Program-made: the position numbers and the translations under genes
From: a virus
Length of the DNA stretch: 64,000 nucleotides
IMG/VR virus record: IMGVR_UViG_3300033148_003376
Location: 39,594-103,593 of that record
Direction: 5' to 3' (one strand)
The notes under the pieces: generated by a model
The model's database searches: none
What the model saw: only the letters and a program-made list of their open reading frames with translations
What the model was told of the DNA's origin: nothing
Shown here: positions 6,533 through 58,743 of the stretch, in pieces
Numbering within the stretch: position 1 is the first letter of the stretch
Layout: every line of letters starts with the position of its first letter

Positions 6533-8380
6533 CTAATCAGCCCACGCCATTTTGCCGGTTGCTTCACAATCCCCATATACCATGAACGATGTCAACGAGC
6601 CCCCAGAGAATCGTACAAATATTGTGCCCGCGCCATTATCGCAACGTGCCCTAACGAAAGCGTCGATATTAGTTGTGTTTTGCCCCGCAGTTACTGCCTG
6701 TCCGCCTTCATATCCACTAGCAAAAGTCGTTCCCGACATTACTAGTGTGAAGGTAGAAGTTGCTGTTAGTGTAAAACCTATTTGAAATTTGACCCACCAA
6801 ATATCGCCAACTTTTTTATATGGTGTGAAAGTGCCTTTTGTAAGAGTAAACCCTGCATCATCAGAACACACTTCAAGCGTGGAATCATCAGATGGGCAAT
6901 TTGCAGCAGCCCCACCATCAACAGCAATATAATCTTTTCTACCAAGCTCCGTATCCCTTGGATGGGAATTACCAATGAAACTGGGCAAAGCCATCGCATC
7001 AGGCCCTGGTCCAACCACGATATCAGCAAAATCAGAAGCATCAAAAGCACCTGCTCCCCAGTCTACACAAATTGTATCTGAGTCCAGCTTGACAATTGCT
7101 TTGTCTAGGAAGGCATCGGCAGCGGTCAATACCCCAATAAGAATACCTAAAGAATTATCCCAATATTCTATTCGGATTCCGGCAAAAGTAGGATCGATCG
7201 TTGTTGTAACGTCTGAGTAGCCTGCTTCGCAATCAGTCGTTCCACCTGCGCTTGTGACTCTGATCGTCTCGCTATTGGTTCCGGTTGCTACGCCGCTTGT
7301 GTTGCTTGTCCATCCTGTAATTGGGACGGTTGCCCAGCATTCTATAAAGTCAGTATTAGCCCATGTGAATGGTACTGTGGCACTTAAAAGCGTCGCTTTT
7401 TCATATGTCGTCTGATCTTCGAGGATCGTTACCCATAGACTGTTTGAATCGGCGTATTTGGTCTGCCCTATATAAGATGCTGTCCCAGTATCGCTAAGGT
7501 GACATTGACCCTCTACGACTGTCGGAGTACCGGAGTATTTGGATGTGTCTATCGTATAGCCCGATGGTAAATCAAAAGTTAGTGCAGTGTCATCGGGGGC
7601 ACCGCTTAGAGACACTCTGATTCTCAACTTCATCTCTTCGCCTACTCGATTCCAATATCCATCTACAGTTGTGTTTGCCGACCAAGTTGCTCCCGGTGTA
7701 TAATTCGTCCAGTCCGAAGCATTGAAGGTCTTCACATTCGCCCACGACACGCTGTCTTCCGGCCTTTCGTCATACATGACAGACCAATTCGTAGTACCCA
7801 CGGCAGTCCTGACAATACCTATCTTGACGTACCTCTCAGGATTCGGATTTCCCGATGTATTGAGCCATGCCACAAAATTGGTATCTTCGATTTGGTAACA
7901 CGTTCGTTCAGAATCAGTCGTAGTGGTTTCCGTCAATCCGTGTGTATCGAAACCGAATCCATATCTGGAGTCTACAGCCAATGCGTCCAAAAACGTCACA
8001 TCTCCTTGAGTAACACTTACATCGGTAGCAATATGTGCTTCAGTCGTACAAGGAGATGCATCGCAGGTGCAGAACAAGGTACCATTGTGGCGTTTCGTTC
8101 CACTTTTGACATTGACCACTGTGAGACTACCATACATTGGTTTGAACGATGAGTCGCCTGACGCGCCCCAAGAGGGAATCCCATATCCATCCGTGATGAG
8201 ACATTGGCCAGCTTCTCCACCTTCGCTCGACGATCCCAAGGATATCTTGCCAAGTTTAAACAGTCCTTTTCCCCGCATGTTGATACTTCGTTTCATAGGA
8301 GCTGCAGTATTCGGAACAGCAACAGCCCCAGTCAGAAACGGTAGAAACATAAAAAGAATCAGAAATTTCATGTATTGCAT
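6533..8380 (-). CDS. fibre/receptor-binding-like protein with N-terminal signal-like peptide
   Basis: 615 aa, GGAGG RBS; Thr/Gly-rich; fibre-like motifs (AGQCLITDGYGIPSW; WTNYTPGATW...GYWNRVGEEM); N-terminus MKFLILFMFLPFLTGAVA. Confidence 0.55.
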   Translation of the reverse strand: MQYMKFLILFMFLPFLTGAVAVPNTAAPMKRSINMRGKGLFKLGKISLGSSSEGGEAGQCLITDGYGIPSWGASGDSSFKPMYGSLTVVNVKSGTKRHNGTLFCTCDASPCTTEAHIATDVSVTQGDVTFLDALAVDSRYGFGFDTHGLTETTTTDSERTCYQIEDTNFVAWLNTSGNPNPERYVKIGIVRTAVGTTNWSVMYDERPEDSVSWANVKTFNASDWTNYTPGATWSANTTVDGYWNRVGEEMKLRIRVSLSGAPDDTALTFDLPSGYTIDTSKYSGTPTVVEGQCHLSDTGTASYIGQTKYADSNSLWVTILEDQTTYEKATLLSATVPFTWANTDFIECWATVPITGWTSNTSGVATGTNSETIRVTSAGGTTDCEAGYSDVTTTIDPTFAGIRIEYWDNSLGILIGVLTAADAFLDKAIVKLDSDTICVDWGAGAFDASDFADIVVGPGPDAMALPSFIGNSHPRDTELGRKDYIAVDGGAAANCPSDDSTLEVCSDDAGFTLTKGTFTPYKKVGDIWWVKFQIGFTLTATSTFTLVMSGTTFASGYEGGQAVTAGQNTTNIDAFVRARCDNGAGTIFVRFSGGSLTSFMVYGDCEATGKMAWAD

Positions 8381-21993: not shown

Positions 21994-22722
21994 TCAGGTA
22001 CGTTTTCGTTTTTCCAGTTCGGATTTGATCCATTTTTTCGCAATCGGATTGGTGGTCGATTTCCTGGCAAACTTGGCGACTTCTTTCCAGACCATGGCAA
22101 GAACTTTGTCATCGCTCGTCTTTGGATCACTGTTATCCACGACGATGAAGTTCTTGCCAAAGAGATTCTGAAACTTACCAATGTTGTTTTGAACATCGTT
22201 CCATGCTTTGGTTATTGCTTCCACACGGACTGTTCTTCCACCTCTTTCACCTCTTTGTTTATTCCGTTCAATTGCAACATCCAGTGACGTATTTACGAAG
22301 ATCATGAACGCATCATAGCCAAGTTCCTCGAAGTTCAATTTCTGACCCTTGATCTTGTTGTAATCTTTGGCAGTTCCATCAATGAGTAGACCCAAGCGAC
22401 CGTTGAGATACTGTTTCAGTTTTGACCCAGTCAATGTCTTGGCTTTTTTTCTAATCTCTTGTGATTTTTCGAACTCCTCTTTAGAAAGCTTTGTGAAGTC
22501 GAGAGAAAGACCAGCCCGGGTCAAAAATAATTCAACCAAATCATCGGAATTCACCGCTCTAAAGCCGTGTCCACCTGTTGTATGTTTGCCGACGAAACCT
22601 TTACCGGATCCCCCGCCCCCAGCCATGAACACGGCTTTGAAGATAGAAGGATCATACACACCCTCATTGATAAGGACTGCCTGTCGCACTCGTTCTAAAA
22701 CCTGTGCCGCTCTTGATGTCAT
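21994..22722 (-). CDS. leader-tagged P-loop kinase (zeta-toxin/AAA_33-like)
   Basis: AVFMAGGGGSGKG Walker A, VNSDD, LLIDGT, AIERNKQR..RTV lid; leader MTSRAAQVLERV...LINE. Confidence 0.8.
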   Translation of the reverse strand: MTSRAAQVLERVRQAVLINEGVYDPSIFKAVFMAGGGGSGKGFVGKHTTGGHGFRAVNSDDLVELFLTRAGLSLDFTKLSKEEFEKSQEIRKKAKTLTGSKLKQYLNGRLGLLIDGTAKDYNKIKGQKLNFEELGYDAFMIFVNTSLDVAIERNKQRGERGGRTVRVEAITKAWNDVQNNIGKFQNLFGKNFIVVDNSDPKTSDDKVLAMVWKEVAKFARKSTTNPIAKKWIKSELEKRKRT

Positions 22723-34937: not shown

Positions 34938-36941
34938 TTATCCTAGTGCGGGTCGTCGTTTCGGTGTTTTAAAACCTGGTGTTCGCTTTGGAGTTTTGAG
35001 TCCAGGTGTCGGTTTTCGTTTGAACGTCGCCGATTTCTTCACAACTGGTTTTTTCTTCACAGTCTTTTTCTTGGGACGAATTCCCTTGATACCTGTTACT
35101 TTTCCTTGCACGAGTCCTGCTCCGATCAATACTCTTATGAGAGCTGAAATGTGTTTGCAAAACCCGAGGATGTTCTTTGGGTTTCTCTCCGGTCGATCTT
35201 TGGTCTTGCGGATATATCGACGCCAATTTCCGATGAGCGACTTTTTGTCGTGGAGTGGCTTCTCCCAACCAAAGCGGAAATCGGGACAATTATGTACAAA
35301 TACACCACTTGAACAATCGGTATTACCATCTATATCTACTGCGAAATTCCCATACTTTTCTACGGTAAAACAATAAACATCTTCACATCCGTCTTCTTTG
35401 ACCGAGACCACTTTATGGTTAAAGTTAGGATCTTCTTTCACAAGATCATACATCCCCACTGACCGCTTCATTATCTGAATGGGAAGATCCAGTGCTGACA
35501 CATGTCTTCTAATCGCATCGAGGAAGTGATGAAATTGTGAATAACCAAATTTAGTCTGATAAGAAGATGTCAAACGAAATGAACCATTGGATAAAGATAT
35601 GAGCCAGTTCCTAAGAACGTTAGCTTTTTTGAAATTTTTACTTTTCAATAATGACCATGACCCATCCTTTTGAGCGTCTATCATCTGCTTTCTAACACGT
35701 TCACGATGTTCGTCTGTTTGAAAGTGATGACGTCCTTCTGTGACAGCTTTCCTATTTACTTCCGTCGCCTTCGCTAAACCATGACTAGTGTCGATAGACC
35801 CGTCTGCGAGTTTCCTTTTCCGGGTATCAGATTGTCTCTTCCTTACTTCTAGTGTATTACCAGCGACCCTGCATTTCTTGACAAAGTCGTCTATTTGTCC
35901 TCTTTGTCTTCGTGTCTCTACAGCTTTCATTGAAATTTCAGATCTCTTCCCCGGAGACATCGCAAGCCAGCGTTCGAGTACCTTTCCATGGAGACCTAGT
36001 CGTCCCTGAGTCTCACGCATCTTCTTCACAGTCTCCGGATTCTTCATCGGATTCTTGTCACCAGCCATCCTTTCATGGTGGAGCTTGTTATGCTCATACC
36101 ATGACATTCTCTGAATGTTGGATGGTGTATTATCTCTCTTGTTAAAATTTCTATGGTGTCGTATCGTTCCGGCTGATTTATCATAAACGTCGGTTTCTAT
36201 ATTGTAAGAATCCGACAAAGAATGTGTTGTTTCCCATTTGTCGGACCCTTGGTATACTTCCTCGTATCCTTCCATGAATGTTTTGTCAGAAAGCTTTCTA
36301 TAAAGTGGTTCAATCGAATCACCAGATGTCAATTGGTCAGCTCGTAAATAATGACCGTTTTTCAAAAGGAATTCATGATCGGGTGTACATCTAATAGAAT
36401 TTCCATTATCGAATGTGATTTTCAACAGTTTAGCATTTTCTTCTTTGACCTCACATGTATGGGCTCTACCAACCACTACCTTTTCACAATCAACATCATA
36501 CGAAAATACGAAGAACTCATTTCTCCCGATCAAATCTCGTATTGGAATGGATGTCCCATCGGCAAGTGGTATAAGAGTATCTCCAGTGAAGCAAGAGCAC
36601 TTTATTTTCACCGGATTTTTACTCAAACGAGGTGGCTCATAATACATGAGCTTCGTAGCGACCTTCACCGGTATCCAGTTTTCTTTTTCTTTCTTATCGG
36701 AAAACTTCACGTCCCCGAACTGAGCATATGTCGTGTACCGTGCAACCTTTTTTGGTATCCCTTTCTTACCGGTAACTTCTACAGCACCCGCAGGATCACC
36801 TTCGACTGTACCCTTGTAAAGAATCATCTTCACACCGACCATAGGCACAGTCACGATCTCGATGACATCCCGGCGTTCATACTTCGTGTAGTCCCGGAAA
36901 GGCTTCATCTGTTTTGCAATTTGGGTAAACGACATAGCCAT
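34938..36941 (-). CDS. SWIM zinc-finger protein interrupted by an intein
   Basis: Spliced extein reads KIKCS|CPDFRFGW...FCKHISAL (CxC...CxH); 232 aa after splicing; basic TPKR-type tail. Confidence 0.85.
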   Translation of the reverse strand: MAMSFTQIAKQMKPFRDYTKYERRDVIEIVTVPMVGVKMILYKGTVEGDPAGAVEVTGKKGIPKKVARYTTYAQFGDVKFSDKKEKENWIPVKVATKLMYYEPPRLSKNPVKIKCSCFTGDTLIPLADGTSIPIRDLIGRNEFFVFSYDVDCEKVVVGRAHTCEVKEENAKLLKITFDNGNSIRCTPDHEFLLKNGHYLRADQLTSGDSIEPLYRKLSDKTFMEGYEEVYQGSDKWETTHSLSDSYNIETDVYDKSAGTIRHHRNFNKRDNTPSNIQRMSWYEHNKLHHERMAGDKNPMKNPETVKKMRETQGRLGLHGKVLERWLAMSPGKRSEISMKAVETRRQRGQIDDFVKKCRVAGNTLEVRKRQSDTRKRKLADGSIDTSHGLAKATEVNRKAVTEGRHHFQTDEHRERVRKQMIDAQKDGSWSLLKSKNFKKANVLRNWLISLSNGSFRLTSSYQTKFGYSQFHHFLDAIRRHVSALDLPIQIMKRSVGMYDLVKEDPNFNHKVVSVKEDGCEDVYCFTVEKYGNFAVDIDGNTDCSSGVFVHNCPDFRFGWEKPLHDKKSLIGNWRRYIRKTKDRPERNPKNILGFCKHISALIRVLIGAGLVQGKVTGIKGIRPKKKTVKKKPVVKKSATFKRKPTPGLKTPKRTPGFKTPKRRPALG
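35289..36593 (-). mobile_element. intein (435 aa) with HNH-type endonuclease domain
   Basis: Block A CFTGDTLIPLADG; block B IRCTPDHEFL; block F DVYCFTV...NF; block G VFVHN followed by Cys+1; internal IRHHRNFNKRDNTPSNIQRM...EH..LH. Confidence 0.95.
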
Positions 36942-38355: not shown

Positions 38356-39489
38356 TTACGTGATGGTCAACTTGGTAATGTACTGTGCCACAAGCGTTTC
38401 CGCCGCGCCCCAGGCTGCACCCGCTCGCATTGAGCCCAGAGGGTTAGGTGCCTCGGGGATCGTTCCCGTGATGAGGAGTGGCATAAAAGGGGCCCAGATC
38501 GCGGGCGCTTCGAAAATCGTGCCACCATTCCATACACACAGGATTTCAGCCAGCGGTAAGATTGCTGCTTCGAGTACACGAACCACGGTTACGCCATTCA
38601 ACGTTCCGTACACGTGTGCGCCGAGAGCTTTTCCATCGGCCAATTTCTCGAATCCAGGCATGACAGAGATCGTCGTGCAAGCGTCTTTTCCGGCGATGAG
38701 AAGAGAGATGATTCCACGGCCACAGTTTCCAGTGAGTACGCCTTCGGCTTGTGCGACCGCTTTTTTGAAAGACAGCCAGTGTTCGTAATCGGAAATGTTC
38801 GTCGGAGGAGCTTCCTGCCAGTTGGTATTTCCGATGGCACTAGCGTTCATGCTACGAATCAGGTCACCTGCGATCTCACGGTTGATCTCGGTCGTGAGTC
38901 GAGTTGCGAGTTCGTCTTCCGCAACCATGCCGAAACGCTTCATGAGAGCGAATTCTTGCATGAGTCCGATGCGTCCCTTGAGAGCGTACATGTGACTCAT
39001 GACAGTCTTGCTGTCCATGAAATCTTCGATGATCGGAAGATCGGTCGAGAGTTCGTAGTTGGCCTGACCAGATGCGTAGATCTTCTTGGCGTCGAGACCG
39101 ACGTCGTCGGTGACTTTCAGAATCACCGCACCGGTAACGTGGTTGATGGTACCGGAAAGTCCGATCCCGTAGAGTACACCCAATCCAGTCGCGGAGTCAG
39201 TTTCAACATCTTTGGCGACAGCGACACTCTCTGCAATGCCTTCGATCGTGATCTTGAGGGTCTGAGACCTGATGGGAAACATCGCTGCAGGAAGAGTGAA
39301 ACCGTATCCTTCGGTACCCGATGTGATGGTAGCGCCTGTGTCCAGGGGACCGAGCAGGTTCGATGCGTATCCCACTGGAGTCACGATACCGGTACGTGGG
39401 TTGACGACTACGTCACCAGCGGCTTGGGAACCTTTGGTTGTCGCTGAACGCACGTTCTGAAAGTAGACTGTTCCCTTCTCGTCGTCGAT
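38356..39489 (-). CDS. major capsid protein (T4 gp23-like), exon 2
   Basis: IDDEKGTVYF...; EDELATRLTTEINREI; G.ISLLIAG; VYGTLNG; AIWAPFMPL; in frame with exon 1 after splicing (490 aa total). Confidence 0.9.
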   Translation of the reverse strand: MDDEKGTVYFQNVRSATTKGSQAAGDVVVNPRTGIVTPVGYASNLLGPLDTGATITSGTEGYGFTLPAAMFPIRSQTLKITIEGIAESVAVAKDVETDSATGLGVLYGIGLSGTINHVTGAVILKVTDDVGLDAKKIYASGQANYELSTDLPIIEDFMDSKTVMSHMYALKGRIGLMQEFALMKRFGMVAEDELATRLTTEINREIAGDLIRSMNASAIGNTNWQEAPPTNISDYEHWLSFKKAVAQAEGVLTGNCGRGIISLLIAGKDACTTISVMPGFEKLADGKALGAHVYGTLNGVTVVRVLEAAILPLAEILCVWNGGTIFEAPAIWAPFMPLLITGTIPEAPNPLGSMRAGAAWGAAETLVAQYITKLTIT

Positions 39490-39771
39490 CATTTGTGTTC
39501 ACTACGAGTCGTTAATCCGTAGCCGGGACGAAACCCAGCTCATGCTTTCACATGAGATCAGACTATATCTTCATCCTTCTCTTTGCAGAGGTAGGATGTC
39601 CCCCATTTCCACCCACTTGGGTGTACGCTCGTCAAGAGCTAGTCGTTGAACCTTCTCAATTTTCATTGAGCTTGGCTGCTGATTGTCATATCTATTATTC
39701 ATAGACTTAGAGTTTCCAGCAATTAAAGGGATTATCACATGACGTCTCCGTCATGCGGCCCGTCGAAGTTC
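39490..39771 (-). ncRNA. group I self-splicing intron (282 nt, no ORF) in major capsid gene
   Basis: P AAUUGCUGGAAA (39713-39724), Q AAUCAGCAGCCAAG (39671-39684), R GGUUCAACGACUAG (39639-39652), S AAGAUAUAGUCU (39560-39571); 5' exon ends in U pairing with IGS GGGC; last nt G; splicing restores IQP|IDD. Confidence 0.92.
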
Positions 39772-40110
39772 AGGCTGAATCGTCGCGATGATGGGAATCA
39801 CACTGGAACCCATCACGGCAGTAATCACATCCCATGCGACGTTCGGAATGAGACCGAGTGCATTCGTGTTGCTCTCGCTGATCATGCCTCGGTGTCTCAT
39901 CAGAGCCATGTATATTTCGTACTGGTCCAGTTGTTTTCCGAGTGCATAGTAGTCTTGTACTCCGGGGGAACCGCCACGGTGTTTCGCCAGGGGGGAACCT
40001 TCCAGAGCTTCCATCTGAGGTTTGTACGCTTTGAAGTAACGATCGATCGATTCCTCGATCTTGACCATTTCCTCGTCCAGATTGATGTTGCCTTGCATTG
40101 GAGCACCCAT
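39772..40110 (-). CDS. major capsid protein, exon 1
   Basis: AGGAG RBS; prodomain ending MISE|S; ...VIPIIATIQP matches the gp23 ...GVQP motif. Confidence 0.9.
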
Positions 40111-40183
40111 GAATATTTCTCCTATTGGTAGTTGTTCGTGTCAATTTCGGCACCGAGAAGTGTCGGCTACCAAAGGAATTCGC

Positions 40184-41839
40184 TTACTTGTTCATGACCG
40201 GCTTGACTCCGCTTCTGAGACCGCTCAGGTTTGCCATGATTCTCGCGGCTCTCGAACCTGAAGCTTTGTAGCTCTCGCGGATCGGCTCGGGTTTGGGATC
40301 TCCGTTGTCATCCCTTTTCTTGTACTGAACCAGATTCGCGTTTTTTTCTTTCAGGTCTTCGAGGAAAGTCCGTACCTCTTGCATTCCCTCTTCGACTGTT
40401 TTGGTTTCGCCTTTGCCCATCTTCGTATAGGTATTGAAAACGGTCGACTCGTCGAACCCGAGTTCTTCGCCGAGTTCCTTACAGTCTACTTTTGCCTTGT
40501 CGTCTTCCATGGACTCAGCCATGCTGTCTGCTTCGTCGATGCATGTTTTGACTTCTTCGACGGAACCGCTTTCGAGGTACCCATCGATCGTCTCTTTGGC
40601 TTTGCTGAGAGTTTCACGGACTTGCTCGGGAGTTGATTCCAGATCGTTCCAGCGCGACAAGAGAGCCATGCCTTCAGTGATGGATTTTTGGACTTCTTCG
40701 AGAGGACCAAGTTCCTGGAAGGCTTTCAGCTTTTCGAGGATCTCTTCACCCTTCCTGATAGACTCGCGGACCTCGTCGACTTCGCCGATTTCCCGGTAGG
40801 CTTTCAGATCGGTTTCGAGACGATCGAGTGCTTCGTTGATCTTACCGGGTTCACCGAGTTCCTGGTACTTTTTGAGAACGTCTCCGTCTTCGTTGAGAGT
40901 CTGAAGGTTCTCTTTCAGATTGTTGTTTTCGTCGGTGAGAACGGCATTCACGCCCTTGGTCTCTTCCAGTGTACCGAGAGCCCTTTCGAGGTCGAGCTTC
41001 AGCTTCGCGCTTTCGTTACTCAGGTTTTCGATCAGGGTGTCTTTGGGATCTACTGCTTGTGGCATATCGTCATCCTCTCTTGATGTTTGTGTGTTTTCGT
41101 TCGTGGGTATGGGAGCGTCGTTTTTACCTTTATGGTAATTGTTCACCACGACACTCGACACGTTGCCTTGGATGCTGACTGTCTTGTCTCCTTCGATATC
41201 TGTCGATGGGTCTTCTGTCGACTCACCGAAAACCTCATTGAGGGATTCAGCTATCTGTGGGTTGGCTTCCAAAAATCCAGGTTCCATTACAAAATCAAAC
41301 CCTTCGAGGAAGAAATTGTCAGGATCCACGCAGGGCATTCCGTCCTTTTTGCCCTTGTATTTGCCTTTGGCACGTGATGATGAAAACAATTCGCAACCTG
41401 CTCGTTTGACAGTGTTCAAAATCTGACCCGCGGGAGTGTTGAGAATCCACGCCTCGCCATATCCTTTGATCCCGTTGTGGTTTTCCTTGAGGTCTACCAC
41501 TACATGAGAGATCTTGCCGTCCAGAAGAGCCTGGTCGTTGATTTCCTGCTCGTGTCCGATCGTCCCGAACATCCTCTTGCCTTTGAGCTTCTCTAGGATA
41601 GTCTTCTTGACGAGTTGTTTGAGCCAAACAAGAGCCTCGTAGAAGCGTCCGTTCCTGGACTTACCGTCGAGAACGAAGAAAGGTCCCTTGATCTTGCCAA
41701 GAATGGCCGGTCCTTGACCACTCGTCTTCGCTCCAGATTCGGTCAAGATCTGTTCAGCATCGGCTTGAGACTGATCGTCCGCGTCCTCATAGACAAAGTC
41801 AGACGCAGGTGTGAAATCATCACGCAGGATTTCCATCAT
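40184..41839 (-). CDS. prohead protease (T4 gp21-like) fused to scaffolding domain
   Basis: SRNGRFY, GTIGH, ISH, ILNTPAGQIL, SSRAKG, FDFVMEPGF.EA; Glu-rich coiled-coil C-terminal half; GGAGG before ATG 41839. Confidence 0.9.
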   Translation of the reverse strand: MMEILRDDFTPASDFVYEDADDQSQADAEQILTESGAKTSGQGPAILGKIKGPFFVLDGKSRNGRFYEALVWLKQLVKKTILEKLKGKRMFGTIGHEQEINDQALLDGKISHVVVDLKENHNGIKGYGEAWILNTPAGQILNTVKRAGCELFSSSRAKGKYKGKKDGMPCVDPDNFFLEGFDFVMEPGFLEANPQIAESLNEVFGESTEDPSTDIEGDKTVSIQGNVSSVVVNNYHKGKNDAPIPTNENTQTSREDDDMPQAVDPKDTLIENLSNESAKLKLDLERALGTLEETKGVNAVLTDENNNLKENLQTLNEDGDVLKKYQELGEPGKINEALDRLETDLKAYREIGEVDEVRESIRKGEEILEKLKAFQELGPLEEVQKSITEGMALLSRWNDLESTPEQVRETLSKAKETIDGYLESGSVEEVKTCIDEADSMAESMEDDKAKVDCKELGEELGFDESTVFNTYTKMGKGETKTVEEGMQEVRTFLEDLKEKNANLVQYKKRDDNGDPKPEPIRESYKASGSRAARIMANLSGLRSGVKPVMNK

Positions 41840-42238
41840 AAGATGCCTCCGTTTTATGTTCAAAACTCATAGCTGTCATGAAGTGATGATCAAGAAATGA
41901 GATGTAGACGAACGTAGAAGGTTTTCGTAGGGAAAACGAATCTCGGGTTGGTTTACTATATAGCCTATTCAATAGTTAAAGCATTCTAAGGACTCCTTTA
42001 CAATTTTGTATTTTGATAAACATCGACACTTTGCCAGGTGTATTCATGAAGATATTGGGATGAGTTCAATTAGGAACGATGTTCGTTTAGATGGGTAGGG
42101 TCAGTCTTTTTTCTAAGACATTTCAACGTCTCTCGACCAGGAAGCAGTCATAATAGAAGTTTGAACGTTTGGTAGACTCAGATAGATTTCGTCCTTAGAC
42201 GTGTCTAAGTATCATCAAACTTCTTTTCCAAGACATGT

Positions 42239-42937
42239 TTATCCTACGATCATTTTTACTGCGTCAACGTAACAAGGCTCATCTTCATTTCGCTTTGCCA
42301 AGATCTCCTCGAACTGTCTGAGTACGTTTTCAAACTTCCTCGACTTCGCATCGGCGATCTCGGATATGAGATATTTCCGTTCCACCATTCTCGTGAGTAA
42401 TTCAACATCGTCTTTGTCGATGTTCTCATCAAAGGCGTAGACCTTCTGTTCGATACTACTCAATGCAGCATAGGCGTCTTCGTAAAAAATGAAATAGTCC
42501 ACGTACACGTCCACCGACATATAGAAATGAGACTCGATCAACAGATGTGTCTTTGCAGACGCGATAGCCTTGAGGGTATCGAGAACGATATCAACGGATT
42601 CGTTCTTATTGCCGACTAAGCTATCGCTCCTATAAAATTGTCGAGTCGCGATGAATCGAGCCAGACTTCGATGGAACCGTTTTCCAGCGGTCGACCGATG
42701 AAAGCGTTTGATTCCTTTCATGATTTTATATCGAAATTTACGCCACTCTGCTTTCGTGACTTGAGATCTTCGGAAGTCGACGAGCTTGGGTATGAACAGG
42801 CGACGTTTCCGGATGACCATCTCGACAAGCTCTGCAGTCGGTTTGAAATCCTTACCAGCAGAGATCTCAGACATGAGATCCATCCTCTCGGCTTCGACCA
42901 AGAACATCATAATATCGTCTTTCGAAGCAAACTTCAC
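42239..42937 (-). CDS. putative prohead core protein with basic segment
   Basis: AAGGAG then GTG at 42937 (GTGA overlap); RRSQ..K..WR..R...GIKRFHRST.GKRFHR. Confidence 0.6.
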   Translation of the reverse strand: MKFASKDDIMMFLVEAERMDLMSEISAGKDFKPTAELVEMVIRKRRLFIPKLVDFRRSQVTKAEWRKFRYKIMKGIKRFHRSTAGKRFHRSLARFIATRQFYRSDSLVGNKNESVDIVLDTLKAIASAKTHLLIESHFYMSVDVYVDYFIFYEDAYAALSSIEQKVYAFDENIDKDDVELLTRMVERKYLISEIADAKSRKFENVLRQFEEILAKRNEDEPCYVDAVKMIVG

Positions 42938-43245
42938 ACCGATCTCCTTGATAGCATAGACTTTTTCCCACACGCTATGATAAAATTGTCCACCTTGGTT
43001 ATGAGACACTTCACTGAGTTTTTCTCCATGTACTTGACGCTTTTCAACATCGTCAACATGTTATTGATGTCATGGACCTTCGATGGATATCTCCGCACGA
43101 CGGACTCAAGTGCTTTGATCCTCTTCTCGATCTCACTGTCATGTCCATTTCTCTCGATGATATCAAGAAATTGTCTAGCGAGACTTTTACCCTTTGGAGA
43201 TGATCCGACTGGTGCTGTTAAACAGGCGTCGTGCATATTGCTCAT
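42934..43245 (-). CDS. hypothetical protein with leader-like motif; start uncertain
   Basis: Contains KSLARQFLDIIERN; stop coupled to the next gene. Confidence 0.55.
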   Translation of the reverse strand: MSNMHDACLTAPVGSSPKGKSLARQFLDIIERNGHDSEIEKRIKALESVVRRYPSKVHDINNMLTMLKSVKYMEKNSVKCLITKVDNFIIACGKKSMLSRRSV

Positions 43246-43900: not shown

Positions 43901-44674
43901 TTATGCACCCGTTACCTTGTAACCCTTCGGCGTTTTCTGCTTACCCAGTTTGGATCCCTTCCTGACCTTGAGTGATTTTTTCAATGCACGAGAGATCTGA
44001 GATTTCTTGCTCTTCCTTTTCGCGACTCCCTTGCGAATCCCAGCTTTTTGTTTCGCTGTTAGATGACGTCGTTTTTTCCTTTTTACCAAAGTGAGCTTGA
44101 CCTTTTTCCCACCTCTTACCACTGTCTTGAAGCGTTCGTCAATCTCATAGACATCGTCGCCGAATTTGATCTTGTCGGTACCGCTCTCGATGAAGACTAT
44201 CTCGTCGTCGAAGACTGCGACATAACACTCCTCGATTTCACCGGTCTCCGAGTCGGGTATTCCGTCGATATCACCAGCCTGAAGAATCGTAGACAGTGTC
44301 GACTTGTTCATCCATGTCAGATCGGCGAGTTCGATTGTCTCGACGAAACCGTCTCTGTTGATGGTCGGTTCCACCGTACCGAGATCGACAATAATGTGTT
44401 CTTCGTCCATCTCGTCGCCGACGATCATAGCAAACGGTCCCTCGACTGGATCCATTCCGAATAAGACAGAAGAAACGTCTCCTTCGTAATCCTCGAACGT
44501 AACAACGATGTCTCCGTCCCCAAGAGGATCAACTCCTTTGACCACGACGCCATCGAAATCGAACTCGGCTAGTTTGCCCGCGAAAGCATCCTTGACCGCT
44601 TGTATACTTCGCACACCGAGATTGGGAAAACCGAGATTGTGCATTTTCTTCAGAACATCTCCAGCTCGTGACAT
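43901..44674 (-). CDS. prohead core protein (T4 gp68-like C-terminus), leader-tagged
   Basis: Leader MSRAGDVLKKM; acidic body; IDE|RFKTVVRGG...LTAKQK..IRK...R very basic tail. Confidence 0.65.
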   Translation of the reverse strand: MSRAGDVLKKMHNLGFPNLGVRSIQAVKDAFAGKLAEFDFDGVVVKGVDPLGDGDIVVTFEDYEGDVSSVLFGMDPVEGPFAMIVGDEMDEEHIIVDLGTVEPTINRDGFVETIELADLTWMNKSTLSTILQAGDIDGIPDSETGEIEECYVAVFDDEIVFIESGTDKIKFGDDVYEIDERFKTVVRGGKKVKLTLVKRKKRRHLTAKQKAGIRKGVAKRKSKKSQISRALKKSLKVRKGSKLGKQKTPKGYKVTGA

Positions 44675-45780: not shown

Positions 45781-46881
45781 TTACAACGCGTTCATCTTTT
45801 CCAGGAAATCACTTGCGACTGAGCCATACTCTACATGACTTTCCCAGATCGCATTCTTATTGTATTCCTTCAACTCGGCAGTCATGTAGTCTATCATCTT
45901 GGATTCTGATGAGATCTTTTTCGATTCTTTCATGAGTCTCACAAAGAACTCGATGGTCGCCAGTGATTCAGGAAGCGAAACAGCCGCAATCGGAGAGATC
46001 CGCTTGTTTTTACCGTAGAGACCGTTGATGTGCCAAGCAGCGACCTTGAGCATTGTCGTACGGAAGATCATGAGTCTGAGTTCATCCTTGATCGGAATGA
46101 CCCATGTGTCTTTACTGTGGTACTTCGCGCCGATTCGATCGTTGAGTCCGGTCTCGAAATCCCGTCGCTTGAACTTGCGTTTCTTCTTCCCGGCGAAGAT
46201 GTCGGTGAGTTTCTTGACCGGGAATAGCTTTGATGGAGTCGCGAGATCTCTCGTGTTCTTCTTCGAGTCCCAGGTACGTTTTCCCATCTTCTGTTTGAGT
46301 CCATCATGATAGAGATGGAGATCCACGTAGAATGGGAATGTTGCGCCTTCCTCGCCGCCACCGAGAGATGTTTCGAGTCTCACCTTGTATAGTGAAACAT
46401 CGATCTGAATATAAAACACCAGAGTTCGATCCGGTGTGAAAAATTCGTATTCAAGAAGTACGAGATCGCCATATAGACCAGTCGGTATTTTCTCGACCTC
46501 GCTATATTTGAGAGTCTTCCCTGAGTACTTCTCGAAATACTTCAGGTAGACATCCGGTTTGAACATGTCTTTGAGGAGCTTGAGAACGATCGTGGACTTT
46601 CGTCTCTTCTCTTCGGCGTCCGCTTCCCGTTCGGCTTGTCGACTGGATATTGATGTACCTTTACCGGTACCGTGTTTTTGTAGATACTCGTATGCCGCGT
46701 TGACCTTTTGTTGCATCTCGGTCGTACCACCTCGATCCGGATGGTGTTTGAGACTGGCCTTTCTGTAGACTACCTTGAGATCGTAGTCCTGGGTCGGATC
46801 GATCTCAAGAACTTCCATGGCCATCTCTGAGGTCATGTTGAATTCGAGAATAAGGTCGAGGAAGTCGGATGCGATAGTCAT
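45781..46881 (-). CDS. J-domain (DnaJ-type) protein, leader motif at both ends
   Basis: EVLEI...LKVVYRKASLKHHPDRGG..EMQQKVNAAYEYL; N-term MTIASDFLDLILE, C-term SVASDFLEKMNAL. Confidence 0.88.
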   Translation of the reverse strand: MTIASDFLDLILEFNMTSEMAMEVLEIDPTQDYDLKVVYRKASLKHHPDRGGTTEMQQKVNAAYEYLQKHGTGKGTSISSRQAEREADAEEKRRKSTIVLKLLKDMFKPDVYLKYFEKYSGKTLKYSEVEKIPTGLYGDLVLLEYEFFTPDRTLVFYIQIDVSLYKVRLETSLGGGEEGATFPFYVDLHLYHDGLKQKMGKRTWDSKKNTRDLATPSKLFPVKKLTDIFAGKKKRKFKRRDFETGLNDRIGAKYHSKDTWVIPIKDELRLMIFRTTMLKVAAWHINGLYGKNKRISPIAAVSLPESLATIEFFVRLMKESKKISSESKMIDYMTAELKEYNKNAIWESHVEYGSVASDFLEKMNAL

Positions 46882-47674: not shown

Positions 47675-48652
47675 TTACGAACACATATTCAAAAGACGAT
47701 CTGCTTTCGACTCCGCTGGCTTGCCTTCGAAGTTCTCGACGAGTCTTGGCATCTTCCTACCAAGCTTATTGAACTTGGACTCCGGTGCAATGGTCAGATC
47801 CGGTGACGCGACCGACGACAGTCTTTTCAAAGCGTCTTCCAGTTTGTGATCGAGTAGATAATGGGAGATGATCAACTCTCGCAGATGTGCAAATGAGAAC
47901 CCGTCGGTGCGCTCAGAGAGTGCCTTGATCTGATCCGGCTTCTCGATTCCCTTGAGCTTGTGCTTGAGGTAGATCAGACGACCTTCTATCGGAGGATGTC
48001 CCACGTGAATGGTGTAATCGAATCTACCGGGACTCTTGACCCGTTCCGGGATCCGATTCAGATAGTTCGTGGTCGCGATGTAACAGACTCCGTCTACTGA
48101 CATGTTCCCATCGAGAAGCTGAAGGATCTCGTGTTCTCCATATTGCACCAGCTTGTCGAGATCTTCCATGATGCAAAGAAGCTTACGATCCGGTTCGACT
48201 TCCTTGAACATGCGAATCGCGTTGATTGTGATCCCGAGAGACTGGGTATAGAAAACGACGTCGTCCTTGGCGAGTGTGTCCTCGACGAGAATCTTGATCG
48301 CCGACGATTTACCGGATCGATGAGGTCCTTCGAGGAGCATTCCACGGTTATGCAGATACCCGATGTCGTGATACTTCTTTCCCTTCTTCCAGAACTTTTC
48401 GATCTGTGTGAGGATTTCGACATGTTCTTTCATGGGAAACCGGAGAAGCTCATCGCTCTTCAGATCCATTTCCTGGAAATAGACTCCCGCTTGATTACGA
48501 GATGGAACGTAGACACCGGGTTTCAATCTCTTGATGATCTCGATGTCCTCGGGAGCAGGTTTGCTCATACTCCCCTGTTGAATGTATTGTACGAGTTCAC
48601 GCTTTTTCTCTACAGCTTCGCACATACTGAGGAGTCTATCCGCTTTACCCAT
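47675..48652 (-). CDS. AAA+ ATPase (classical AAA clade, BCS1/FtsH-like module), leader motif at both ends
   Basis: GMLLEGPHRSGKS, LLCIMEDLD, ATTNY...PERVKSPGRFD, TDGFSFAHLREL; N-term MGKADRLLSMCE, C-term ESKADRLLNMCS. Confidence 0.88.
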   Translation of the reverse strand: MGKADRLLSMCEAVEKKRELVQYIQQGSMSKPAPEDIEIIKRLKPGVYVPSRNQAGVYFQEMDLKSDELLRFPMKEHVEILTQIEKFWKKGKKYHDIGYLHNRGMLLEGPHRSGKSSAIKILVEDTLAKDDVVFYTQSLGITINAIRMFKEVEPDRKLLCIMEDLDKLVQYGEHEILQLLDGNMSVDGVCYIATTNYLNRIPERVKSPGRFDYTIHVGHPPIEGRLIYLKHKLKGIEKPDQIKALSERTDGFSFAHLRELIISHYLLDHKLEDALKRLSSVASPDLTIAPESKFNKLGRKMPRLVENFEGKPAESKADRLLNMCS

Positions 48653-48696
48653 GAGAGATATCCTTTCAAACCAAGATGATATTTTGGGCATACCTT

Positions 48697-52810: not shown

Positions 52811-53125
52811 CTACCTGATACCCAACGACATCTTCGCATGATCACCATGGTAATAAACATTTTTCTTGTTCGGATGTGGCTCGACCTTGTCGATGAGATC
52901 CATGGCTTCACCCTTGTTACCCGCGTCAATGAAAAACGCCACACCGTTCCCGGCATTGGCATTGACGACAGTCTGGTCCCAATTCAGTCCACCGACCTTG
53001 CCTGACATCTTGGCTTTCTTCTTAGCCTTTTCGAGATTTCCGACGTACTTCTCGTCTGCCCACATTATGATGGTTTTGCTCACGGCTTCGCGTACTTTCG
53101 TAAGGACATCTGATGCTCGACTCAT
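52811..53125 (-). CDS. leader-tagged protein
   Basis: GGAG RBS, ATGA coupling; MSRASDVLTKVREA. Confidence 0.8.
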   Translation of the reverse strand: MSRASDVLTKVREAVSKTIIMWADEKYVGNLEKAKKKAKMSGKVGGLNWDQTVVNANAGNGVAFFIDAGNKGEAMDLIDKVEPHPNKKNVYYHGDHAKMSLGIR

Positions 53126-58254: not shown

Positions 58255-58743
58255 TTACGCGGCTCTTGTGCCACCATGTGGAATTCTCTTTGCAAGACCT
58301 ATGATCAGCTCGTCTGCCTGACCCATGATCCTCTTTTGATCTTTCTCCGGGAAGCTATCTATGTTCTGCAGTTTGAATCTCATCTGGTCAATAGAGTGGA
58401 TATCCTTGGGGAACATCTTCTTGAGATTCTTGAGTGCTACGAGTTGTTGATTGACTCGACCACCTTGTGCCTTCTCGATGAGACTGAGAAGATCCTCGAC
58501 GAGGGATTCTTTCGGCGCGGGTCCGTATGTCTTTCCATATCGAGCACGGATCTCTTTTCTCTTCTCTATCGAGAGACTGTACCAGATGCTACCGATAGTC
58601 TGTCGGATCCGTTCGTCGTCGTAGGTGGGACTGGATTTCTTGATATCCTTTACCATCTTGTCCCACCATTCAGATGGTGCCTTGAGGCTAGGCGCAGTCT
58701 CCGCTTTTTCAACGAGACTGAGAAAGGATTGTACTAGGTTCAT
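58255..58743 (-). CDS. protein with two leader copies (fusion of two tagged modules)
   Basis: MNLVQSFLSLVEKAE and internal ESLVEDLLSLIEKAQ. Confidence 0.8.
   Translation of the reverse strand: MNLVQSFLSLVEKAETAPSLKAPSEWWDKMVKDIKKSSPTYDDERIRQTIGSIWYSLSIEKRKEIRARYGKTYGPAPKESLVEDLLSLIEKAQGGRVNQQLVALKNLKKMFPKDIHSIDQMRFKLQNIDSFPEKDQKRIMGQADELIIGLAKRIPHGGTRAA

What the first reader, a model, noticed from the sequence alone, without database searches (positions are those of the whole stretch)
40184..40270. Scaffold C-terminus (SRAARIMANL) matches the cargo leader
Seen: the protease-scaffold ends ...IRE|SYKASGSRAARIMANLSGLRSGVKPVMNK. SRAARIMANL aligns with the leaders SRAAQVLERV (22722), SRASDVLTKV (53125) and SRAGDVLKKM (44674), with the same hydrophobic spacing. 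Known: the C-terminal helix of the P22 scaffold is its coat-binding element. Inference: the cargo leaders are copies of the scaffold's shell-binding helix and dock in the same pocket, much as encapsulin cargo-loading peptides do. This would supply a mechanism for the tag system.
Basis: partly seen in the sequence, partly recalled or inferred. Interest (0 to 1): 0.8.

Follow-up and report, generated by a model that had tools for sequence, protein, structure and literature searches.

The report
Scaffold tail loosely resembles cargo leaders
The last 29 residues of this phage's head protease-scaffold protein hold a conserved docking helix that resembles only a minority of the N-terminal tags carried by about 30 other proteins, so the idea that the tags copy it to enter the capsid is modestly supported and untested.

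Summary
The sequence is as described. ORF 40184..41863 (-) is a T4 gp21-type prohead protease fused to a coiled-coil scaffold, and it ends ...IRE/SYKASG/SRAARIMANL/13 more residues.

The tail is conserved. More than 70 homologous fusions end in F-x-[EK]-[SP]-[RL]-x-x-R-L-M-E-x-F-S-K, usually just after a hydrophobic-x-Glu site of the kind T4 gp21 is reported to cut. AlphaFold2 predicts a short isolated helix there. A complex prediction with the phage's own capsid protein gave weak support (0.36; best control 0.00).

The likeness to the leaders is modest:
- Against this genome's own leader profile the tail scores -0.5 bits and ranks 30th of 170 C-termini. hhalign finds nothing.
- Only one of the three cited leaders (SRAAQVLERV) scores as tail-like.
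- Across the clade, a profile built from scaffold tails alone finds N-termini of unrelated proteins 13-15 times more often than internal sites. One relative's leader is 7/10 identical to this tail.
- Tails and leaders do not co-vary within genomes.

Verdict: the tail is most likely the scaffold's shell-binding anchor. A minority leader subtype resembles it. Whether they share a pocket is unshown.

Earlier notes of this scan report clearer tail-copying leaders in other T4-like phages; I did not check those.

The parts
40184..41863 (-). Prohead protease-scaffold fusion gene. It gives 559 aa from TTG 41863, or 551 aa from ATG 41839, which is the form held in the protein database.
   Evidence: One search lists the ORF. 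PHROG 207 (head maturation protease) matches at E 4.7e-20. 33 of 38 homologues carry PF03420, Peptidase S77. A family profile hits the T4 gp21 structure 5jbl at E 5.6e-7.
41222..41722 (-). gp21-like protease domain (about aa 40-206 of the 551-aa form)
   Evidence: The AlphaFold2 model has pLDDT 81-96 over aa 41-180 with a beta-rich fold. Invariant His, Ser and Gly columns appear in the 36-sequence alignment.
40328..41047 (-). Coiled-coil scaffold region (aa 265-504). It holds about four tandem repeats of about 30 aa, L-K-x-Y-x-E-L-G-x-x-E-E-I.
   Evidence: Helices 265-504. The repeat shows in the consensus. Density of hydrophobic-x-Glu sites is 0.082 here against 0.021 in the proteome.
40259..40327 (-). 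Disordered Pro- and charge-rich linker (aa 505-527). It contains the last hydrophobic-x-Glu site, I-R-E at 40274..40282.
   Evidence: pLDDT is below 50 over aa 505-527. The last such site ends at residue 522.
40226..40255 (-). Tail helix SRAARIMANL (aa 529-538), the conserved C-terminal motif of the family
   Evidence: A helix is predicted at 530-538. The motif aligns with S-R-x-x-R-L-M-E-x-F of relatives. It scores 10.7 bits under a tail profile built without it, second best in the whole proteome.
40187..40225 (-). Basic 13-residue extension after the helix (SGLRSGVKPVMNK). A P-x-x-N end is shared with some relatives.
   Evidence: Alignment A4. The segment is disordered and has no acidic residue.
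22687..22716 (-). Leader 10-mer SRAAQVLERV of a Zeta-toxin/AAA-kinase-like protein. This is the only leader of this genome that is tail-like.
   Evidence: It scores 9.2-9.9 bits under the tail profile and BLOSUM 23 against the tail.
53093..53122 (-). Leader 10-mer SRASDVLTKV
   Evidence: It scores -0.4 bits under the tail profile.
44642..44671 (-). Leader 10-mer SRAGDVLKKM of a conserved cargo family
   Evidence: It scores -2.4 bits under the tail profile. Orthologues with leaders occur in 8 relatives.
38356..40110 (-). Gp23-like major capsid gene, the proposed partner of the tail. Exon 1 is 39772..40110 and exon 2 is 38356..39489; a group I intron lies between them.
   Evidence: PF07068 matches at E 2.6e-7. 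Rfam RF00028 scores 99.3 bits. Relatives' intact genes align across the junction. The two exon products were used in the complex prediction.

Best explanation
The region encodes the C-terminal tail of a T4 gp21-type prohead protease fused to a gp22-like coiled-coil scaffold. The tail is a short, basic, amphipathic helix (RAARIMANL). It sits on a disordered linker of about 25 residues and is followed by a 13-residue basic extension.

I infer that it anchors the scaffold (and with it the protease) to the inner face of the Gp23-like capsid protein. I also infer that cleavage at the last hydrophobic-x-Glu site (I-R-E, six residues upstream of the helix motif) frees the core from the shell at maturation. 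This is how the C-terminal tail of the herpesvirus protease-scaffold works.

The roughly 30 N-terminal leaders are a separate motif family. They share with the tail a capped amphipathic helix design with the same hydrophobic spacing. Only a minority subtype (S-R-A-x-x-hydrophobic-hydrophobic-E-x-hydrophobic) is truly tail-like. Whether any leader uses the tail's docking site is open; I put that at about 0.2-0.3.

Shown here: conservation, the predicted helix, the position of the site, and the similarity statistics. Inferred: binding to the capsid protein, the cleavage, and its role in release.
For: - Identity of the protein. The head module is T4-type (Gp23 capsid, T4-like portal, T4-type terminase).
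- Conservation: 38 database homologues and 75 IMG/VR loci end in the same motif, consensus F-x-[EK]-[SP]-[RL]-x-x-R-L-M-E-x-F-S-K. The window's own tail scores 10.7 bits under a tail profile built without it, second best in the proteome.
- A hydrophobic-x-Glu site precedes the motif in most relatives. In this window it is the last of 36 such sites, and no acidic residue follows it.
- AlphaFold2 predicts helix 530-538 flanked by disorder.
- Complex prediction of own capsid exon-1 and exon-2 products with the 40-residue tail: weak support. The score was 0.36 (runs 0.36, 0.44, 0.36) and the best of 3 controls 0.00. That mark was reached by 58 of 80 solved complexes and 2 of 110 mismatched pairs, but at 0.60 or under by only 7 of those 80 and by both mismatches that passed. 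The runs agree in at least 57% of contacts, and the partner's pLDDT is at least 49.
- The tail exists without a detectable leader family. Rhizobium phage RHph_TM30 has a canonical tail but only one marginal leader hit (E 0.023) in 207,623 bp.
- Precedents: the C-terminal amphipathic helix-and-hook of the 80alpha scaffold binds the capsid N-arm (PMC5644958), and the P22 scaffold HTH is essential for coat binding (bioRxiv 10.1101/2022.12.13.520362).
Against: - The complex result is only weak support. No interface was returned, and the partner's own fold is uncertain.
- No experiment or structure exists for this clade.
- In T4 itself, which part of gp22 touches gp23 is unknown and the core structure is unresolved (PMC9958956, PMC9546572).
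- A clade-level signal ties tails to some leaders. It comprises the 13-15-fold N-terminal enrichment of tail-profile hits, which persists with columns 5-10 alone, and a relative's leader that is 7/10 identical to this tail. The two elements may therefore be more closely linked than this explanation assumes.
- Cleavage at I-R-E is inferred from T4 gp21 specificity, which I recall rather than tested.
Confidence: 0.5

Rival explanations
1. Scaffold mimicry. The leaders descend from, or imitate, the scaffold's C-terminal helix. They load about 30 unrelated proteins into the prohead by occupying the same pocket on the capsid protein, and the protease then clips them off.
For: - The two motifs share the register S-[KR]-[AG]-x-x-hydrophobic-hydrophobic-x-x-hydrophobic.
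- The mean BLOSUM score of the own tail against 64 leaders is +7.9, against a null of -7.8 (sd 6.1).
- A tail-only profile hits 16 of 1,325 N-termini at 8 bits or more, against 0.09% of internal windows. The hits fall on mostly unrelated proteins.
- Leaders of locus L028 (M-(T)-S-R-L-K-K-L-I-E-S-L) match the family tail consensus.
- The L011 leader is 7/10 identical to this window's tail.
- True leader copies also work from the C-terminus. The J-domain protein and the AAA ATPase carry them 1-3 residues from the end, at 16 bits.
- There is a precedent for mimicry of a scaffold tail: CpmB and the 80alpha scaffold (PMC5644958).
- Earlier notes of this scan report clearer cases in other T4-like phages. 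These are leads only.
Against: - The tail scores -0.5 bits against this genome's leader profile and ranks 30th of 170 C-termini. hhalign finds no match.
- Typical leaders score no better under the tail profile than roughly the 70th-90th percentile of ordinary coiled-coil windows. This is my rough reading of the means and the 90th percentile.
- Tails and leaders do not co-vary within genomes (p 0.59 and 0.63).
- Their charges are opposite.
- Three other scaffold segments match leaders as well as or better than the tail does.
- The T4 literature places CTS-tagged proteins in the core, not on the shell (PMC3012670, PMC7411985).
Confidence: 0.22
2. The tail's partner is not the capsid protein. It binds the portal, the protease domain (as an autoinhibitory or oligomerising peptide), or another scaffold chain. 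Leaders and tail look alike because both are helices presented to the gp21-type protease next to a hydrophobic-x-Glu site.
For: - In most relatives the tail core itself reads L-M-E-S, which is a hydrophobic-x-Glu-Ser site.
- 25 of 30 leaders carry such a site at residues 9-24, mostly at 12-13, against 44 of 151 control N-termini.
- Capsid propeptide segments around their own predicted cut sites also resemble the tail in loci L030, L014 and L016.
- C-terminal propeptides that target proteases into proheads are proposed for SPN3US gp245 (PMC7411985).
Against: - This window's tail has no acidic residue, so it cannot itself be a Glu-type substrate. The motif is nevertheless retained.
- The complex prediction lost all signal when the capsid exon-2 chain was replaced by an unrelated protein.
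- Every scaffold copy carries the motif, which fits a partner as abundant as the capsid protein better than a 12-copy portal. This last point is inference.
Confidence: 0.13
3. The likeness is coincidence. Two short amphipathic helices share a hydrophobic pattern, and S-R-A arises for unrelated reasons: small and basic residues after the initiator Met in leaders, and the first two residues after a protease cut in tails.
For: - Within scaffold proteins the tail's leader-profile rank is close to expectation. The median rank is 11-12; I estimate about 14.6 for the best of 21 positions among about 450.
- 40 other internal sites in this genome match a leader equally well.
- Most of the +3.5 bits under the relatives' leader profile come from S-R-A (8.5 bits); the other seven positions sum to about -5.
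- S-R is not universal in tails. A K-P-L variant is about as common.
Against: - The N-terminal enrichment of tail-profile hits persists (9.1-fold) when the first four columns are dropped, and the first three columns alone give only 2-fold.
- The top N-terminal hits reach 11-20 bits, which is the range of real tails.
- The conserved tail window ranks 3rd to 6th of 4,123 conserved windows.
Confidence: 0.3

Closest known systems
Phage 80alpha scaffolding protein C-terminal helix-and-hook, and its mimic SaPI1 CpmB (PMC5644958)
   Same: An 11-residue amphipathic helix plus a short basic hook sits at the extreme C-terminus of the scaffold and binds the capsid N-arm. A second protein carrying a near-identical C-terminal motif competes for the same site. 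This window has a 9-10-residue predicted helix plus a basic extension at the scaffold's C-terminus.
   Different: There is no sequence homology, and the R-I-I-K hook is absent. In 80alpha the mimic is C-terminal and redirects capsid size. Here the proposed mimics are N-terminal tags on cargo, and their likeness to the tail is weak. 80alpha has an HK97-type head, not a T4-type head.
Herpesvirus protease-scaffold (HSV-1 UL26/UL26.5) with a C-terminal capsid-binding tail released at the maturation site (my own knowledge, not checked here)
   Same: The protease is fused upstream of a scaffold. The extreme C-terminal peptide is the proposed capsid-binding element. A protease site lies just upstream, so cleavage uncouples core from shell. 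Here I-R-E lies six residues before the helix motif, and in relatives hydrophobic-x-Glu directly precedes it.
   Different: The protease family differs in sequence (S77 here), as does the cleavage motif. Neither binding nor cleavage was tested here.
Capsid targeting sequence (CTS) of phage T4 internal proteins IPI-III and Alt (PMC3012670, PMC9958956, PMC7411985)
   Same: Short N-terminal peptides on unrelated proteins direct them into the prohead, and the gp21 protease removes them. This window's leaders sit on about 30 unrelated proteins, and 25 of 30 carry a hydrophobic-x-Glu site at residues 9-24.
   Different: The leader profile finds nothing in the T4 genome at E up to 10, so homology is not shown. 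The T4 CTS is said to target the core, its receptor is unknown, and no likeness to the gp22 C-terminus is evident. This clade has far more tagged genes.
P22 scaffolding protein gp8 C-terminal helix-turn-helix (bioRxiv 10.1101/2022.12.13.520362)
   Same: A basic C-terminal element of the scaffold is essential for coat binding.
   Different: P22 uses a two-helix HTH, has no protease, and its scaffold exits intact. Here a single short helix is predicted and the scaffold is full of protease sites.
C-terminal targeting tails of prohead proteases: HK97 gp4 (Duda et al. 2013, listed in the references of PMC7411985; its content is from my own knowledge) and SPN3US gp245 (PMC7411985)
   Same: A C-terminal peptide carries the protease into the prohead.
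   Different: Those proteases are not fused to a long coiled-coil scaffold. No family of cargo tags resembling the tail has been described for them.
Encapsulin cargo-loading peptides (my own knowledge)
   Same: A short peptide on cargo binds a pocket on the inner face of an HK97-fold shell.
   Different: Encapsulins have no scaffold or protease. Their peptides are usually C-terminal and are not removed.

Membership tests
T4 gp21-type prohead protease (Peptidase S77, PF03420) | Significant sequence match to the family | tested here: met
   The window's own protein has no Pfam hit at E 0.01 or below. However, PHROG 207 matches at E 4.7e-20, 33 of 38 homologues carry PF03420, and the family profile hits the T4 gp21 structure 5jbl at E 5.6e-7.
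T4 gp21-type prohead protease (Peptidase S77, PF03420) | Conserved catalytic His and Ser | tested here: inconclusive
   Invariant His96, His112, Ser61, Ser111 and Ser154 columns exist in the 36-sequence alignment. I did not map them onto the T4 catalytic residues.
Scaffold C-terminal capsid-binding element (P22 gp8, 80alpha SP type) | Lies at the extreme C-terminus of the scaffolding protein and is conserved among homologues | tested here: met
Scaffold C-terminal capsid-binding element (P22 gp8, 80alpha SP type) | Forms an amphipathic helix separated from the scaffold body | tested here: met
   AlphaFold2 predicts helix 530-538 between disordered segments 505-527 and 540-551, with pLDDT about 65.
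Scaffold C-terminal capsid-binding element (P22 gp8, 80alpha SP type) | Binds the major capsid protein | tested here: inconclusive
   The complex prediction gave weak support: score 0.36, best control 0.00, partner pLDDT at least 49, contact agreement at least 57%, and no interface returned.
Maturation-site release, herpesvirus UL26-like logic | A protease cleavage site lies immediately upstream of the capsid-binding tail and is cut at maturation | not testable with these tools
   The motif I-R-E is present and is the last of 36 hydrophobic-x-Glu sites. Relatives have hydrophobic-x-Glu next to the motif. Cleavage itself needs mass spectrometry.
This genome's N-terminal leader (CTS-like tag) family | Scores above noise with the leader profile | tested here: not met
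   The tail scores -0.5 bits over 10 columns and -10.2 to -10.6 over 14. It ranks 30th of 170 C-termini. hhalign gives probability 0.3%. True C-terminal leader copies score 16 bits.
This genome's N-terminal leader (CTS-like tag) family | Hydrophobic residues at positions 7, 8 and 11 of the motif | tested here: met
   I, M and L of the tail fall on those positions.
This genome's N-terminal leader (CTS-like tag) family | Acidic residue before the hydrophobic pair, an acidic extension, and a hydrophobic-x-Glu site just after the helix | tested here: not met
   The tail has Arg at that position and no acidic residue in its 29 residues. Its net charge is +6, against a leader mean of -0.33.
T4 capsid targeting sequence (homology of the leaders) | Detectable sequence relation to T4 IP or Alt N-termini | tested here: not met
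   The leader profile A5 finds no match in the whole T4 genome at E up to 10.

The most novel reading that the evidence does not exclude
The S-R-A type leaders, and by descent the whole leader family, are transplanted copies of the scaffold's C-terminal docking helix. Through the scaffold's own site on the capsid protein they load about 30 unrelated proteins into the prohead, including a J-domain protein, an AAA ATPase and a Zeta-like kinase. The gp21-type protease then clips them off. This would give a concrete receptor for CTS-type targeting, which the T4 literature calls unresolved (PMC9958956).
Probability: 0.2. Interest if true: 0.75.

Novelty: new member of a known kind. Interest (0 to 1): 0.42.

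Why it matters
How phage T4 and its relatives address proteins to the prohead interior is still unknown (PMC9958956). If cargo tags imitate the scaffold's capsid-binding tail, the receptor would be the capsid protein itself. That can be tested directly with peptides, co-expression and cryo-EM, and the tag would become a designable loading signal.

In this window the case is weak. What is firmly established is more ordinary: a conserved C-terminal docking motif and a likely release site in an uncharacterised clade of protease-scaffold fusions. The clade-wide enrichment of tail-like N-termini is the part worth following up. It is better pursued in relatives, or in the other phages noted by this scan, where the copy is clearer.

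Tried and rejected
I obtained context for the database homologues through the search for related loci instead.
- hhalign of the leader alignment against the tail alignment gave nothing.
- The leader profile found no match in the T4 genome. I therefore dropped the claim that the leaders are homologous to the T4 CTS and kept it only as a functional analogy.
- Co-variation tests were negative: tail against leaders in 7 genomes (p 0.59), and tail against orthologues of cargo 44674 in 8 genomes (p 0.63).
- Tail-like motifs are not enriched at the C-termini of other proteins in the clade (1.6% against 1.2% of internal windows).
- No promoter-like or terminator-like site lies in 39900..40500. The + strand ORF 40061..40261 looks spurious.
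- An alternative register puts the tail's L-M-E-S on the leaders' cleavage site at positions 11-14. It fits locus L022 but not the canonical tails. I take it mainly as a warning that such short helices align in several registers.
- My first census of relatives' leaders used the window's own leader profile at 10 bits or more. It missed leader types in L022, L023 and L028. Counts based on it are lower bounds.
- PMC3709472 (HK97 protease domains) is not held.
- The look-up of earlier findings by sequence returned an unrelated note.
Full report
**What is there.** The window is the last 64 kb of a single 103.6-kb phage contig with 45-46% G+C. The ORF 40184..41863 on the minus strand gives 559 aa from a TTG, or 551 aa from the ATG at 41839. 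It ends ...PIRE, SYKASG, SRAARIMANL, SGLRSGVKPVMNK. Three proteins do begin M(T)SRA-x-x-V-L-x-[KR]-[VM], at 22722, 53125 and 44674. They belong to a set of 30 minus-strand ORFs whose N-termini align without gaps to M-x-[ILKR]-[AV]-x-[DE]-[FLV]-L-x-x-[IV]-x-x-A.

**What the protein is.**
- It matches PHROG 207, head maturation protease, at E 4.7e-20.
- 33 of its 38 database homologues carry Pfam PF03420, Peptidase S77, the family of T4 gp21.
- A profile of the family hits the T4 gp21 structure 5jbl at E 5.6e-7.
- The best cultured relatives are Rhizobium phages annotated "prohead core scaffolding and protease protein", at 32% identity over residues 39-495.
- The neighbours form a T4-type head module: a Gp23-like capsid gene, a T4-like portal (just under Pfam's cutoff), a T4-type terminase and a tail sheath.
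- An AlphaFold2 model from 36 sequences (mean pLDDT 71) shows four parts. They are a confident beta-rich protease domain (about residues 46-184) and long helices over 265-504. A disordered stretch follows at 505-527, then a short helix at 530-538, which is RAARIMANL, and a disordered end.
- The helical part holds about four repeats of L-K-x-Y-x-E-L-G-x-x-E-E-I.
- It is packed with hydrophobic-x-Glu triplets: 0.082 per residue against 0.021 in the proteome. The last one is I-R-E at residue 522, and no acidic residue follows it. My recollection is that T4 gp21 cuts after Glu in Leu/Ile-x-Glu; I did not verify that here.

**Is the tail conserved?** Yes.
- The 38 database homologues and 75 complete scaffolds from IMG/VR loci almost all end in the same short motif. 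Its consensus is F-x-[EK]-[SP]-[RL]-x-x-R-L-M-E-x-F-S-K-stop.
- MAFFT places SRAARIMANL on S-R-G-E-R-L-L-S-Y-F, P-L-G-L-R-L-M-E-S-F and similar tails.
- A profile built from 28 relatives' tails, without this one, gives the window's tail 10.7 bits. That is the second-best position in the whole proteome.
- In many relatives a hydrophobic-x-Glu site directly precedes the motif, for example P-L-W-E then S-R-G-E-R-L-L.
- The S-R pair is not universal. A K-P-L variant is about as common.

**Does the tail score as a leader?** In this genome, no.
- A 10-column log-odds profile of the 30 leaders gives the tail -0.5 bits, and 14 columns give -10.2 to -10.6. It ranks 30th of 170 C-terminal regions, and 0.7% of internal positions do as well.
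- Two C-termini do stand out, at 16 bits.
- hhalign of the leader alignment against the tail alignment finds nothing: probability 0.3%, one aligned column.
- The best ungapped BLOSUM62 match of the tail to any leader is 23, with SRAAQVLERV. Forty of 23,503 internal positions reach that score. Three of them are other parts of the scaffold, and the tail ties for 6th-8th of 170 C-termini.
- BLASTP of cargo 44674 against the scaffold picks coiled-coil repeat 1, not the tail: residues 323-339, 9 of 17 identical, E 0.024.
- Within 75 scaffold proteins, the tail's rank under leader profiles has a median of 11-12. I estimate about 14.6 for the best of 21 positions among about 450, so this is close to expectation.
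- The tail differs from leaders at their most conserved features. It has Arg where they have Asp or Glu, no acidic extension, and no cleavage site after the helix. Its net charge is +6 over 29 residues, against a mean of -0.33 for leaders.

**Is there nevertheless a family-level link?** Partly.
- Relatives also carry leaders, mostly M-[SN]-[KR]-A-x-[KDE]-[LF]-L-x-x-[IL]-E-E. There are eleven in 21 kb of locus L049, and 13 profile hits on its 237-kb contig.
- Under a profile of those relatives' leaders the window's tail scores +3.5 bits. That is the top 0.13% of internal positions and 5th of 170 C-termini. Most of it comes from S-R-A: 8.5 bits, with the other seven positions summing to about -5.
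- I averaged leader-profile scores over family members and compared the result with 4,123 conserved 10-column windows from 14 protein families of these phages. The tail window ranks 3rd to 6th, although its absolute score is negative at -2 to -3 bits.
- After reading earlier notes of this scan, I ran the reverse test with a profile made from scaffold tails only. I scanned the first positions of 1,325 distinct ORFs of the clade. Sixteen N-termini (1.2%) reach 8 bits, against 0.09% of internal windows. Nine reach 10 bits, against 0.04%.
- The enrichment persists at 9.1-fold with columns 5-10 alone. The S-R-G/A columns alone give 2-fold, so N-terminal composition does not explain it.
- The top hits sit on mostly unrelated proteins. 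They include M-K-SRARRMMENL in L011, which is 7 of 10 identical to this window's tail. They also include M-(T)-SRLKKLIESL twice in L028, and M-SKAQKLLEQF in L004. The L004 protein is the orthologue of this window's cargo 44674, at 38% identity.
- Of this window's leaders only SRAAQVLERV is in that class, at 9.9 bits. SRASDVLTKV scores -0.4, SRAGDVLKKM -2.4, and the majority G-I-A/V-K-D type is well below zero.
- Allowing seven registers, leaders of this genome average -4.9 bits under the tail profile and relatives' leaders -1.1. Scaffold coiled-coil windows average -7.6 and random internal windows -9.1. A typical leader therefore lies within the range of ordinary amphipathic helices, and only a minority is tail-like.
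- Tails and leaders do not co-vary within genomes. The permutation p is 0.59 for seven genomes and 0.63 for eight orthologues of cargo 44674.

**What the tail most likely does.** It sits at the extreme end of the scaffold on a flexible linker. It is conserved and basic, and a protease-type site lies just upstream. All this fits the C-terminal capsid-binding elements of other scaffolds.
- In 80alpha, an 11-residue amphipathic helix plus a hook binds the capsid N-arm. SaPI1 CpmB carries a near-identical motif and competes for the site (PMC5644958).
- In P22 the C-terminal helix-turn-helix is essential for coat binding (bioRxiv 10.1101/2022.12.13.520362).
- The herpesvirus protease-scaffold, as I recall it, has the same layout, with release by cleavage next to the tail.
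- I tested docking with the one complex job available, using the capsid exon-1 product, the exon-2 product and the last 40 residues of the scaffold, each with a 29-row alignment. The verdict was weak support. The score was 0.36 (runs 0.36, 0.44, 0.36) and the best of three controls 0.00. That mark was reached by 58 of 80 solved complexes and 2 of 110 mismatched pairs, but at 0.60 or under by only 7 of the 80 and by both mismatches that passed. The runs agree in at least 57% of contacts, the partner's pLDDT is at least 49, and no interface was reported.
- Rhizobium phage RHph_TM30 keeps a canonical tail, yet the leader profile finds only one marginal hit (E 0.023) in its 207,623 bp. The tail's job therefore does not depend on a leader family that this profile can detect.

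**How this compares with what is known.** Functionally the leaders resemble the T4 capsid targeting sequence. That is a short N-terminal peptide on unrelated internal proteins which directs them into the prohead core and is removed by gp21 (PMC3012670, PMC7411985). A 2023 review calls the localisation mechanism mysterious and the core structure unresolved (PMC9958956). Homology to the T4 CTS is not shown, because the leader profile finds nothing in the T4 genome. The T4 gp22 C-terminus also shows no evident likeness to this clade's tail. Earlier notes of this scan describe several other uncultured T4-like phages in which leaders repeat the scaffold's last residues much more exactly. I treated those notes as leads and did not check them.

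**Verdict.**
Its likeness to this genome's leaders is close to what short amphipathic helices give by chance, and it rests mainly on one leader.
- At clade level a minority of leaders is tail-like beyond chance. This keeps the mimicry idea alive at about 0.2.
- The best-supported reading is an ordinary one. The tail is the scaffold's shell anchor with an adjacent release site, in an uncharacterised clade of gp21-gp22-type fusions.
- Nothing here shows that leaders and tail share a pocket.

Noticed in passing
window 39490..39781 (-): A group I intron (Rfam RF00028, 99.3 bits, E 1.6e-26, full-length model match) splits the Gp23-like capsid gene between Pro113 of exon 1 and Ile of exon 2. Relatives' capsid genes are uninterrupted and align across the junction.
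   Followed up: partly
window 34938..36941 (-): A 667-aa ORF carries an intein (PF14890, E 1.5e-19, residues 124-266) with HNH-endonuclease-like matches. I did not identify the host protein.
   Followed up: no
window 45781..46881 and 47675..48691 (-): The J-domain protein (PF00226) and the AAA ATPase (PF00004) carry a leader copy at both ends. The C-terminal copies (SVASDFLEKM and SKADRLLNMC) score 16 bits under the leader profile. They lie 3 and 1 residues from the stop, and the second follows P-A-E.
   Followed up: yes
window 58255..58743 (-): This leader-bearing ORF has a second, internal leader copy (SLVEDLLSLIEKAQ, 23-24 bits) at about residue 80. This could reflect a fusion of two tagged genes or a missed start.
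   Followed up: no
window 40850..40900 (-), scaffold residues 323-339: The first coiled-coil repeat of the scaffold (G-D-V-L-K-K-Y-Q-E-L-G-E-P) shares 9 of 17 residues with the N-terminus of cargo 44674 (BLASTP E 0.024). That is a better match than the tail gives.
   Followed up: partly
L011:8447-8833 and L005:8329-8709: Two homologous small proteins of relatives begin M-K-SRARRMMENL and M-K-SRAKRMLETT. The first is 7 of 10 identical to this window's scaffold tail and scores 19.9 bits under the tail profile, yet it is less like the tail of its own genome.
   Followed up: partly
L033:9245-9949, L041 ORF starting at 8344; window 42239..43009 (-): In some relatives the conserved protein of about 240 aa encoded just upstream of the protease-scaffold also ends in a tail-like helix (for example T-L-I-E-K-L-N-S-K-F, 10.8 bits). 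The ORF at the same position in this window ends Y-V-D-A-V-K-M-I-V-G. It may be a second core protein with the same kind of end.
   Followed up: no
L030:6661, L014:11379, L016:3703 (capsid gene starts): In several relatives the N-terminal propeptide of the capsid protein contains a segment resembling that genome's scaffold tail, around its own predicted hydrophobic-x-Glu site.
   Followed up: no
window 21994..22722 (-): The one tail-like leader of this genome sits on a Zeta-toxin/AAA-kinase-like protein (PF06414, E 4.3e-12). This is an unusual candidate for a packaged protein.
   Followed up: no
window, 30 leader ORFs between 21598 and 63856 (-): 25 of 30 leaders carry a hydrophobic-x-Glu triplet ending at residues 9-24, mostly 12-13, against 44 of 151 other N-termini. 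This fits removal by the gp21-type protease.
   Followed up: yes
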